NCBI GenBank assembly: GCA_964016885.1
Contig: CAXHJY010000126.1
Coordinates: 1-64,000 of the forward strand
Reading direction: 5' to 3'
Length of the DNA stretch: 64,000 nucleotides
Source of the DNA: Eledone cirrhosa
Taxonomy: Eukaryota
The notes beneath the pieces are model-generated. The model worked only from the letters and a program-made list of their open reading frames with translations, ran no database searches and was not told the DNA's origin. The position numbers and the translations under genes are program-made. Each line of letters opens with the position of its first letter. Position 1 is the first letter of the stretch. Below, one piece after another: positions 4,047 through 62,322 of this stretch.

Positions 4047-4329
4047 GTGAGGTTTTTTTTACAAATTGAAAAATAACCGAGGTGTCCTACACGAGTGAAA
4101 GTATAAAGAAAAAGAGATGAAATCGAAAATGCAACTGGAGTCTTATTTTTTTTTTAAATATATATTTTTATTTGGTTCCTTTACCGGTTTCGCAGTTCTT
4201 CTGCTTTTCAAAAGGTGAGTTGAAAAGCAGAAGAACTGCGAAACCGGTAAAGGAACCAAATAAATATATATATTTTTTAAAAAAATAAGACTCCAGTTGC
4301 ATTTTCGATTTCATCTCTTTTTCTTTATA
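4041..4329. mobile_element. (TA)n-flanked fold-back non-coding PLE-type insert, HHR family A
   Basis: Near-perfect inverted arms 4102-4211 and 4220-4329, unique tail 4041-4101, (TA)n on both sides. Confidence 0.8.
4178..4215 (-). ncRNA. Minimal type-I hammerhead ribozyme, U3-A8 core variant
   Basis: Minus strand: cctt TTGAAAA gcag-aagaa-ctgc GAAA ccgg TA aagg. Stem I cctt/aagg, stem II gcag/ctgc, palindromic stem III ACCGGT. Confidence 0.7.
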
Positions 4330-31486: not shown

Positions 31487-31530
<44 letters not shown>

Positions 31531-31532
<2 letters not shown>

Positions 31533-31730
31533 GGAACCAGTAAGACCCCGACAGCTGAGCTCAAGCCGTTTCGACGGCTAATTCTGGACAGAGTCCAGAA
31601 TTAGCCGTCGAAACGGCTTGAGCTCAGCTGTCGGGGTCTTACTGGTTCCTATTACCCACTCTACTACCTCAAGTATTGAGTACTTTGGTGCGTTATGGTC
31701 CACCTGGTTCCTTACCACATTTCCTTCGTT
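31531..31730. mobile_element. Perfect-hairpin insert with HHR 3' half, family D
   Basis: Perfect 60-bp stem 31530-31652 with loop aga; GAAA cggc-ttgagctca-gctg TC gggg; tail homologous to the reverse complement of 62124-62209. Confidence 0.8.
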
Positions 31731-45770: not shown

Positions 45771-46589
45771 ATAATAACGCACTTTCTAAAGCCGGCTATC
45801 CAGATAAAATCAAATATAATAAAGAAGACAAATTCTAGAAAAACTTACAGTAGAATAATTAATCATAACCATTCCAATAATTTTAATAAAAGACCTAGAT
45901 ACAAAAACATAATCTGGTATAATGCTCCTTTCTCCATCTCTATTAATAACAATATTCCTAAATTATTTTTTAGTGCCTTAAATAAATGCTTCCTCCCCTC
46001 ACATATCTATAGTAAAATATTTAACAAACACACCATCAAATTTTCGTATTCTACATCCTCCAATATTTCCAACATCATCTCTAAACACAACAACAAAATA
46101 TTAAATACTAAATCTCTTCCTTCCAATATTGAATTTCATATAACTGAGAAAAAGATATATTAAAACAATATATCTTTTTCTCAGTTATAAAAACTATCTC
46201 TTTCTCTCTATCACCCATCTCTCCCTCTCCACCTTCACTCTCATCTCCTCCCCCCTTTTTTTCATCCTCCCCCCCCCCTCCCTAAATAAAATATTTTTCC
46301 TCGTACATATCCTCCCTTCGTTAATTTTCAAAATTTTTAATTTATACAGTATCTTCCAACGGTTTTCAACCTCTCTTTGTAAAAAATATATCTCCTCTCA
46401 GTTATAAAAACTATCTCTTTCTCTCTATCACCCATCTCTCCCTCTCATCTCCTCCCCTTTCATCCTTCCCCCCCTCTCTAAATAAAATATTTTTCCCAAT
46501 ATCACACATCAATCTAAAACCATTTTTCATATGTTGATTTAAAACTGCACTATCCACAAGTGTTTTTTAGCCTTCATATCATGTTCTCC

Positions 46590-56293: not shown

Positions 56294-56886
56294 GATAAAA
56301 ACAAATAACGAAACGAAATTAAATTTCGTTTCGCTTCTAACTCACTTTTGTATGACTGACGCTTAAACAATTAAGTCAAAGTGTACATCTACATATGTAT
56401 ACGGAAGTATTAGTATGCATATAAATACACATATGTATACATATGTACATGTACCGAGCTTTTCACTAGACACTTTGCAGTGAGTGTCTAGCTAGTCTGT
56501 ATGTAAACACACAGACGAACCGGGTTTTAAAGTCATACGGGTTTTCAAGGAAACACACTTCCTCTATCCTCCAGAGAGCCAGACAGGAATATTGGACTAG
56601 TTTCGATGTTATTACATCTCATCAGCAATATATACCTATCTTCTGGCTTCTCCGGAGAATTGTAAAAGCACATATCGTTATATGCTTTTTCTATGAAAAT
56701 CAGTAGTGGGCAGACTAATTTGCATAGAACGTGAGTCATTGTACGCGCCGGTTCAGCGGAAACGATAAAAACAAATAACGAAACGAAATTAAATTTCGTT
56801 TCGCTTCTAACTCACTTTTGTATGACTTACGCTTAAACATACTAATACTTCCGTATACATATGTAGATGTACACTTTGACTTAATT
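56294..56886. mobile_element. (TA)n-flanked insert with direct and inverted terminal blocks
   Basis: Direct repeat 56294-56369 / 56764-56839; inverted repeat 56369-56418 / 56838-56886. Confidence 0.6.
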
Positions 56887-59295: not shown

Positions 59296-59510
59296 AGTGG
59301 TAGAACACTGGAAGGTAATATCCGTAGTGGTAGAGCACTCAGTCCATGGGACGAGTTAGGTAGAAGTGGTTACACAACAGTTAGTTCGCCACACCGAGAA
59401 CAATTGATCAACCTTAGTGGATCCTCACCTCGTGATTACGAACTGAGGATCCGCTAAGGTGAAACAATTGTTCTCGGTATGGTGAACTAACTGTTGTGTA
59501 ACCACTTCTA
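59296..59510. mobile_element. (TA)n-flanked hairpin insert with HHR 3' half, family G
   Basis: Arms 59361-59427 and 59444-59510; GAAA caattg TT ctcggt with stem III palindrome ACAATTGT. Confidence 0.7.
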
Positions 59511-62123: not shown

Positions 62124-62322
62124 AGAATAAAGAAAGTGTGGTAAGATACCAGGTGGACCATAACGCACCAGAGTACTCAATACTTAGAGTAGTAGAGTGG
62201 GTAATAGGAAAAGAGTCAGGACCCCGACGGCGGAGCTCCGGCCGTTTCGACAGCTAGATCCGAACTGTTCGGATCTAGCTGTCGAAACGGCCGGAGCTCA
62301 GCCGTCGGGGTCCTGACTCTTT
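62124..62322. mobile_element. Hairpin insert, family D (second, diverged copy)
   Basis: Near-perfect hairpin 62210-62322 centred on 62266; GAAA cggc-cggagctca-gccg TC gggg. Confidence 0.8.

What the first reader, a model, noticed from the sequence alone, without database searches (positions are those of the whole stretch)
31530..31652. Inversion centre coincides with hammerhead stem II in independent insertions
Seen: two diverged family-D copies (31530-31652 and 62210-62322, opposite orientation) both fold back 17 nt upstream of the HHR GAAA (gacggctaattctggac-aga vs gacagctagatccgaac-t), and both lack CUGANGA. Family G (59361-59510) likewise has a 17-bp stem ending at GAAA. Inference: the long self-complementary stem II is the annealing or snap-back point that resolves integration. 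The result is a catalytically dead perfect hairpin, so the ribozyme fold would have a second, structural role in retrotransposition.
Basis: partly seen in the sequence, partly recalled or inferred. Interest (0 to 1): 0.75.

Follow-up and report, generated by a model that had tools for sequence, protein, structure and literature searches.

The report
Penelope hairpins ending at RNA start
These DNA hairpins are tiny head-to-head insertions of a Penelope-type jumping gene, present in tens of thousands of copies, whose two arms stop at one shared spot that is likely the capped start of the element's RNA rather than a ribozyme stem, which would give a testable clue to how these elements copy themselves.

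Summary
Family D is a Hydra-type Penelope-like element. In 100 sampled copies, 53 of 62 long arms and 49 of 55 inverted short arms that reach 35 nt upstream of the hammerhead cut stop within the next 11 nt. The stem II snap-back reading is not supported. The perfect 17-bp stem is produced by the inversion; native stem II is imperfect and the core is UUGANAA. Family G keeps its core and has a 3-bp stem II. Family H stops about 40 nt upstream of its ribozyme. Long copies cross an intact stem II in 20 of 21 cases, and short arms often run past long arms, so the arms are two separate cDNAs. The stop lies 29-30 nt behind a TATA box at an initiator-like A in D1 and H, often with an extra G, which points to the capped RNA 5' end. 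No RNA data were available, and one G control failed. The inverted-pLTR-plus-tail layout is published. I did not find the 5'-end stop in print, but this scan noted it earlier on other DNA.

The parts
31533..31589 (-). Family D1 short arm: copy from the short start site (+17/+20 after the hammerhead cut) back to position -40; flanked by (TA)n
   Evidence: 70 of 71 inverted arms end at this site followed by TA
31590..31591 (.). Junction: two bases not matching the element; the G at 31591 sits directly before A-41 of the long arm (candidate cap-derived G, inferred)
   Evidence: sequence against non-inverted copies, which have T or C at -42
31592..31730 (+). Family D1 long arm: begins at A-41 (candidate transcription start), holds the 3' half of a type I hammerhead (GAAA 31610-31613, stem III, cut after 31632, stem I 3' strand 31633-31638) and the ~80-nt tail; flanked by (TA)n
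62126..62266 (-). Family D2 long arm: begins at A-41 (62266), hammerhead cut after 62226, tail to about 62126, then (TA)n
62267..62322 (+). Family D2 short arm, from -40 to about +16; its outer end runs into (CT)n
59297..59433 (-). Family G long arm (tail plus hammerhead with a mutated core), ending at about -23 relative to G12
59435..59508 (+). Family G short arm with a complete minimal hammerhead (CTGAGGA 59443-59449, 3-bp stem II, GAAA 59461-59464); begins at A-26 relative to G12, preceded by a G at 59434 not found in either arm's template
4156..4275 (.). Family H hairpin core (comparison family): keeps core TTGAAAA at 4220-4226 and a 4-bp stem II; joined through 4 nt of microhomology, away from this family's hotspot; the insertion extends beyond these coordinates on both sides

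Best explanation
Each hairpin is one insertion of a Penelope-like element into (TA)n with a short and a long arm joined head to head, likely made as two separate cDNAs that ran off the capped 5' end of the element's RNA. Shown: the element is pLTR(3'UTR-hammerhead-tail)-5'UTR-ORF(RT, GIY-YIG); arms end outwardly at two fixed sites (+17/20 and +98) and stop inwardly at one narrow zone (-35..-45, edge near A-41); the arms stop independently of each other. Inferred: the enzyme extends both ends of the cut target from two internal start sites on the same RNA; the pLTR promoter starts that RNA at A-41, only 60 and 140 nt upstream of those sites; both cDNAs reach the cap, are trimmed by a few bases and are joined by end-joining with 0-6 nt of microhomology. 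In family D the start site happens to fall inside stem II, so the stub lacks the 5' core. Stem II has no part in the joining.
For: Stop zone: 53 of 62 long arms, 49 of 55 short arms; genome-wide 52,528 matches at -37..-20 against 2,427 at -84..-67 (the second motif misses diverged subfamilies). Two cDNAs: the short arm runs at least 10 nt past the long arm in 21 of 71 by script (clear cases L058, L130, L112, L117, L094); arms share 12 variable sites in 27 of 34 insertions against 34% between insertions, and L077 joins two different variants. Promoter geometry: TATTTAAA 29 nt before A-41 in D1 and TATAAAA 30 nt before A-62 in H, each with CCAAT upstream. Family H: 43 of 70 arms stop at -53..-63 from G12, outside the ribozyme, and 1 of 77 within core/stem II. 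Extra G between (TA)n and A-41: 27 of 51 against 4 of 52 background, p=4e-7; an untemplated 5' G is attributed to the cap in L1 (PMC9341517, passages). Both window D long arms begin exactly at A-41. In vitro, a Penelope protein extends both target strands and starts at two internal sites (PMC11167929, parts 1-2).
Against: No RNA 5'-end data. The G is not shown to be specific to A-41: the control at A-36 gave 3 of 7 (p=0.70 against A-41), and H gave 6 of 23 (p=0.06 against background). D2 stops at the same A-41 but has no TATA box 30 nt upstream. Family G has no sharp hotspot (0.019, 0.034, 0.021 per nt in three zones), only an edge near -62. Only 1 of 21 ORF-bearing copies that reach the upstream pLTR ends at the proposed start, so most long copies need a second template class or a strand transfer. 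TATA, CCAAT and initiator labels are my reading of recalled consensus motifs.
Confidence: 0.68

Rival explanations
1. Structure-coupled stall: the folded hammerhead (stem II, its loop contacts, or a protein bound there) halts reverse transcription near -41 on a longer RNA, and the two stalled cDNAs are then joined.
For: D1 and D2 differ in sequence but both stop about 5 nt beyond a stem II helix kept by compensatory changes; D2 lacks the TATA box; the G control did not single out A-41.
Against: Stops lie after the helix has been copied, not at its base; 20 of 21 long copies cross an intact hammerhead against 9 of 62 first-pass arms (Fisher p=2e-11); D2's stem is twice as stable (-19 to -22 against -9 to -10 kcal/mol) with the same stop; H and G stop elsewhere.
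Confidence: 0.13
2. One reading: a long self-complementary stem II lets one cDNA snap back and prime its own second strand (close to the self-priming idea in PMC3846280).
For: Arms are usually identical at variable sites (27 of 34); many centres are perfect or nearly perfect palindromes (gaps of -2..0 in 34 of 71).
Against: The perfect stem is absent from non-inverted copies; a snap-back of the long cDNA cannot give a short arm that reaches further 5' than the long arm (L058, L130, L112, L117); L077 has arms of two variants; non-inverted copies stop at the same place.
Confidence: 0.05
3. The 5' end at -41 is an uncapped processing end (nuclease or small-RNA-guided cut, or a splice site) rather than a transcription start.
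For: The -49..-40 sequence resembles a pyrimidine tract plus AG; D2 lacks a TATA box; G has a broad zone of ends.
Against: Non-inverted copies keep the AG and abut (TA)n directly, with no shared upstream exon; the G excess and the 29-30 nt TATA spacing in two unrelated families fit a capped start better. The ribozyme's own cut (+1) accounts for only a few ends (L036, L038, L242, L232).
Confidence: 0.1
4. The hairpin is itself a mobile unit (MITE-like or re-copied hairpin RNA), so the shared centre is inherited, or the hairpins are long-read assembly artefacts.
For: A few junction sequences recur (2 pairs among 24).
Against: 22 of 24 junctions are distinct; outer ends match the two start sites of ordinary copies; short-read contigs hold many different head-to-head joints and contigs that cross the fold centre.
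Confidence: 0.04

Closest known systems
Inverted-pLTR plus one-sided tail insertions of endonuclease-bearing PLEs (PMC8557442 Fig. 2 legend and passages; Pen2a_Av in PMC3846280, passages)
   Same: Head-to-head 5'-truncated inverted copy, tail on one arm only, palindrome or microhomology at the junction, partial tandems; a TATA plus initiator-like motif is noted in the Pen2a pLTR.
   Different: Here the stub is the majority product, the tail is about 80 nt rather than 30-40, and both arms stop at one family-specific position; PMC3846280 reads the junction palindromes as self-priming on an antisense template, which the asymmetric junctions here contradict.
Poseidon_Ac in vitro mechanism (PMC11167929, parts 1-2 of 4 read)
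   Same: Two internal start sites that define the tail; both target strands cut and extended; AT-rich targets; ribozyme cleavage not needed for insertion.
   Different: In the parts read it does not address where cDNAs stop in vivo or how inverted copies are joined; different PLE clade.
Hydra clade PLEs (PMC8557442 section 11)
   Same: RWR for RWK, DKT, CxCx5C linker, no CCHH, CxxC and CxH near the C-terminus, (TA)n targets, hammerhead in the pLTR.
   Different: Unit about 3.6 kb rather than under 3 kb; very high copy number; long stem II arm; no tree was built.
PLE hammerheads with the U3-A8 core (PMC4209133, passages)
   Same: Type I fold, U3:A8 in place of C3:G8, extra base after A9, palindromic loop III, and hammerhead pairs on opposite strands 100-700 bp apart.
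   Different: Stem II arm of 54-56 nt that appears to contain the promoter; most genomic copies hold only the 3' half.
Retroviral minus-strand strong-stop DNA, and L1 5' inversions by twin priming (recalled; L1 foldbacks and cap G seen in passages of PMC11702581 and PMC9341517)
   Same: Priming close to the RNA 5' end gives a short cDNA that ends at the cap; both target ends can be primed.
   Different: Target-primed, no tRNA primer; both arms copy the same RNA stretch, whereas twin priming copies different stretches; no strand transfer is shown here.

Membership tests
EN+ Penelope-like elements | Single ORF with RT and C-terminal GIY-YIG endonuclease | tested here: met
   710-aa reading frame in L131 with YRDD and VIY...YIG motifs; this copy has a frameshift near its N-terminus; Pfam gave no hit
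EN+ Penelope-like elements | Partial tandems forming pLTRs | tested here: met
   20 of 30 ORF-start copies are preceded by 3'UTR-hammerhead-tail
EN+ Penelope-like elements | Inverted 5'-truncated copy and one-sided tail | tested here: met
   71 of 100 long-tail loci have an adjacent inverted arm by script; 70 of 71 end at the short site
EN+ Penelope-like elements | Target-site duplication | tested here: inconclusive
   Insertions lie in (TA)n, where duplications cannot be read
Hydra clade | RWK, DKT, CxCx5C linker, no CCHH, CxxC and CxH motifs | tested here: met
   RWR, DKT, CNCPDRSIC, CNLC, CKH; one Cys only between VIY and YIG against PMC8557442 section 11
Hydra clade | (TA)n targets | tested here: met
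Hydra clade | Generally shorter than 3 kb | tested here: not met
   unit about 3.6 kb; the paper says 'generally', so this is a weak criterion
Hydra clade | Placement in the RT phylogeny | not tested
   no reference set was fetched and no tree built
Type I hammerhead ribozyme | Core CUGANGA/GAAA/NUH or a compensated 3-8 pair, with stems I-III | tested here: met
   U3:A8 cores in 38 of 44 non-inverted D copies matched, none CUGANGA; stems seen; the window D hairpins hold only the 3' half
Type I hammerhead ribozyme | Self-cleavage | not testable with these tools
   indirect only: L242 and L232 begin at or next to the cut site
Pol II transcription start (capped 5' end) | Capped RNA ends at the site | not testable with these tools
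   needs CAGE or 5' RACE
Pol II transcription start (capped 5' end) | Untemplated G at full-length cDNA ends, specific to the site | tested here: inconclusive
   enriched at A-41 (27 of 51 vs 4 of 52) but also 3 of 7 at A-36; 6 of 23 in H
Pol II transcription start (capped 5' end) | TATA box about 30 nt upstream | tested here: inconclusive
   present at 29 nt (D1) and 30 nt (H), absent in D2 and not evident in G
MITE or other mobile hairpin | Copies share one internal junction | tested here: not met
   22 distinct junctions in 24 hairpins

The most novel reading that the evidence does not exclude
Penelope-like elements make retrovirus-style strong-stop DNA: the enzyme starts 60 and 140 nt from the cap on both target ends, and the pLTR works as U3-R. 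When both strong-stop cDNAs are joined the result is a hairpin stub; when one jumps to the repeated 3' copy of R it rebuilds the pLTR, which would explain pLTR regeneration and partial tandems without a ribozyme. In family D the promoter sits inside stem II, so new transcripts carry only half a ribozyme at their 5' end.
Probability: 0.25. Interest if true: 0.8.

Novelty: new variant of a known kind. Interest (0 to 1): 0.45.

Why it matters
How PLEs form inverted ends and regenerate their promoter-bearing pLTR is described as unresolved in the papers read (PMC8557442, PMC2377424, PMC3846280, passages). Tens of thousands of stubs in one genome record where both cDNAs start and stop. If the stop is the cap, the inverted structure needs neither self-priming nor an antisense template, each family's transcription start can be read from DNA alone, and a strong-stop/strand-transfer step becomes testable with the existing in vitro system.

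Tried and rejected
DNA search of the own genome with the long arm returned nothing because common words are skipped; patterns were used instead. Rfam found no hammerhead at the three named sites; my CTGANGA scan missed D and H (U3:A8 core) and G (first stem II pair not standard). Pfam gave no hit on the ORF. The look-up of sequencing runs: no RNA holder listed. The first breakpoint mapping used one reference and cut diverged arms short; it was replaced, which still miss some inverted arms (L082, L092, L055, L085, L041 by eye), place a few arms wrongly because of internal deletions (L100, L078, L045, L046, L116) and count the two arms of one insertion (L071, L072) separately. The H and G tallies had duplicates and were redone. 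The A-36 control for the extra G was small (7) and is itself a pyrimidine-purine step inside the hotspot, so it neither confirms nor excludes specificity. Rejected: fixed cDNA length (short-arm spans are about 60, 110 and 150 nt in D, G, H); ribozyme cut as the main stop (few ends at +1); splice acceptor (the AG is kept). Literature searches did not return a paper reporting PLE junctions at the transcription start; no paper held 'strong-stop' together with 'pLTR'. The library lacks most subscription papers, and no supplements were opened (those of PMC8557442 and PMC11167929 may bear on junction positions).

Full report
Observation. The two family D hairpins are present as described: a 60-bp inverted repeat at 31530-31652 and a 56-bp one at 62210-62322, each centred 17-18 nt upstream of a hammerhead GAAA and without the 5' core. 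Each has one arm extended by about 80 nt and lies in (TA)n. Family G (59361-59510) differs from the description: it keeps CTGAGGA at 59443 with a 3-bp stem II. D positions below are counted from the hammerhead cut (+1 is the first base after it); G and H positions from G12 of GAAA.

What the element is. The 3' half of the D hammerhead matches 34,650 times in the 3-Gb genome and the tail 22,029 times. L131 holds a 710-aa frame with RT and C-terminal GIY-YIG motifs and the Hydra-clade marks RWR, DKT, CxCx5C, CxxC, CxH and no CCHH; Pfam gave no hit and no tree was built. ORF-start copies show the order 3'UTR, hammerhead, tail, 5'UTR, ATG, with a unit of about 3.6 kb. Non-inverted copies read ACCCC then UUGANAA (38 of 44 cores; none CUGANGA), the U3:A8 variant reported for PLE hammerheads (PMC4209133, passages). 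Native stem II is an imperfect 54-56-nt arm with a 6-bp helix in D1 and an 11-bp helix in D2. The perfect 17-bp stem in the window is therefore made by the inversion.

Breakpoints. I took the first 100 of 22,029 tail matches, all on contig C1 and chosen by a motif far from the junction. Long arms began downstream of the cut in 18, at -1..-34 in 20, at -35..-45 in 53, at -56 in 1, and ran on beyond -330 in 8. The stop rate is 0.130 per nt in the zone, 25 times the rate downstream and about 300 times the rate upstream. A script found an adjacent inverted arm in 71 of 100; 70 of the 71 end at the short site next to TA, and 49 of the 55 that reach -35 stop by -45. Genome-wide counts agree: 52,528 against 2,427 matches on either side of the zone, with the caveat that the upstream motif misses diverged subfamilies. 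In D2, none of 30 arms sampled at -36 reached the core, and 8 of 30 sampled at -47 did (by eye). Short-read contigs show many different head-to-head joints, contigs across the fold centre, and the largest listed set of loose ends at 31592, which is A-41.

Two cDNAs, not a snap-back. The short arm reaches at least 10 nt further 5' than the long arm in 21 of 71 by script; at least three of these are alignment artefacts, but L058, L130, L112, L117 and L094 are clear. A snap-back of the tail-bearing cDNA cannot produce this. Arms share 12 variable sites in 27 of 34 insertions against 34% between insertions, so both usually come from one RNA or source, and L077 joins two variants. Junctions are mostly unique (22 of 24). 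This fits the in vitro result that a Penelope protein extends both target strands from two internal start sites (PMC11167929, parts 1-2 of 4).

Stem II is not the stop. Of 30 ORF-start copies (the best-scoring of 40 scored matches, 956 candidates), 21 reach the upstream pLTR zone and 20 cross the whole hammerhead, against 9 of 62 on first passage (p=2e-11); four of the 20 look like two duplicated pairs. L249 ends at -40, and L242 and L232 begin at or next to the cut. In family H (13,227 matches), 43 of 70 arms stop at -53..-63, 33-43 nt upstream of the core, and 1 of 77 within core or stem II. Family G (5,470 matches; 73 arms) has a broad zone of ends and an edge near -62.

What the stop likely is. 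In D1 the edge is an A in TCAGTC or TTAGTC, 29 nt behind TATTTAAA; in H it is an A 30 nt behind TATAAAA; both have CCAAT upstream (motif names recalled). The D. virilis Penelope promoter lies in the pLTR (PMC2377424, passages). Among the first 100 of 610 copies that abut TA near A-41, 21 were a subfamily whose own sequence matched the pattern. Of the 51 with a pure ATATATAT flank and one junction base, 27 had G, 14 T, 5 C and 5 A (hand count), against G in 4 of 52 background sites. G is in neither the template nor the flank, and such a G is attributed to the cap in L1 (PMC9341517, passages). Against this: G also occurred in 3 of 7 at A-36 and only 6 of 23 in H; flush junctions with no extra base were the commonest form (44 of the 100 listed); D2 has no TATA box; G has no sharp peak. 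Both window D long arms begin exactly at A-41, the D1 copy with a G before it, and the window G copy has an unexplained G before A-26.

Model. Shown: element identity, two outer ends, one inner stop zone, independent arms, stops outside stem II in other families. Inferred: a pLTR promoter starts the RNA at A-41; the enzyme primes from both target ends 60 and 140 nt downstream, runs off the cap, and end-joining links the two cDNAs. Long and tandem copies would need read-through or circular RNA, or a jump from the stop to the 3' repeat; the 20 of 21 result requires one of these and does not choose among them.

Known and new. Inverted pLTRs with a one-sided tail are described (PMC8557442, passages and section 11; PMC3846280, passages, where they are read as self-priming). 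Eight library searches did not return a report of junctions at the transcription start. The retrozyme preprint 10.64898/2026.07.22.740005 was read only in part 1 of 5 and was not used. Earlier notes of this scan reached similar readings on other genomes (e1-9960851, e1-9585850, e1-9054004, e1-9316633). I had recorded the start-site reading before the look-up and tested it here; those notes are not counted as support.

Noticed in passing
listing (G000:C1, first 100 of 2,427 matches): About 40 of 100 intact D cores read CTGA(G/T)AA, a C3/A8 mismatch expected to impair cleavage, and many occur as head-to-head pairs; a lineage may have spread with a weakened ribozyme (hand count).
   Followed up: no
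L242, L232 (5' junctions); L036, L038, L086: A minority of arms begin at or next to the hammerhead cut site, including two that continue into the ORF; possible copies of ribozyme-cut RNA.
   Followed up: partly
L016/L017, L099, L119: Runs of 13-17 A/T at the junction next to -41..-44, suggesting slippage or tailing where the cDNA ends.
   Followed up: no
window 43176(-)/46598(+) and 58734(-)/59178(+): Two further head-to-head pairs of a CTGATGA hammerhead-like family, 3.4 kb and 0.44 kb apart.
   Followed up: no
window 61978(-), 28696(-), 56573-56643(-), 37279(-): Other hammerhead-like cores; 56573-56643 scores 34.2 bits on Rfam HH9 (below the gathering score); 61978 and 28696 have a long stem II.
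   Followed up: no
window 46139-46189: A 23-bp inverted repeat with a 5-nt centre, lying between the 43176/46598 pair; not assigned.
   Followed up: no
L012, L235, L352 about -105..-95 from the cut: The palindrome CCATATATGG is kept just upstream of stem I in both D1 and D2 although neighbouring sequence differs.
   Followed up: no
L166, L170 (family G, about -75..-50 from G12): GCGCATGCGC-like and CTTCCTG motifs upstream of the family G edge, resembling TATA-less promoter elements (labels recalled).
   Followed up: no
L071/L072, L047: Rare head-to-head insertions in which both arms carry the long tail.
   Followed up: no
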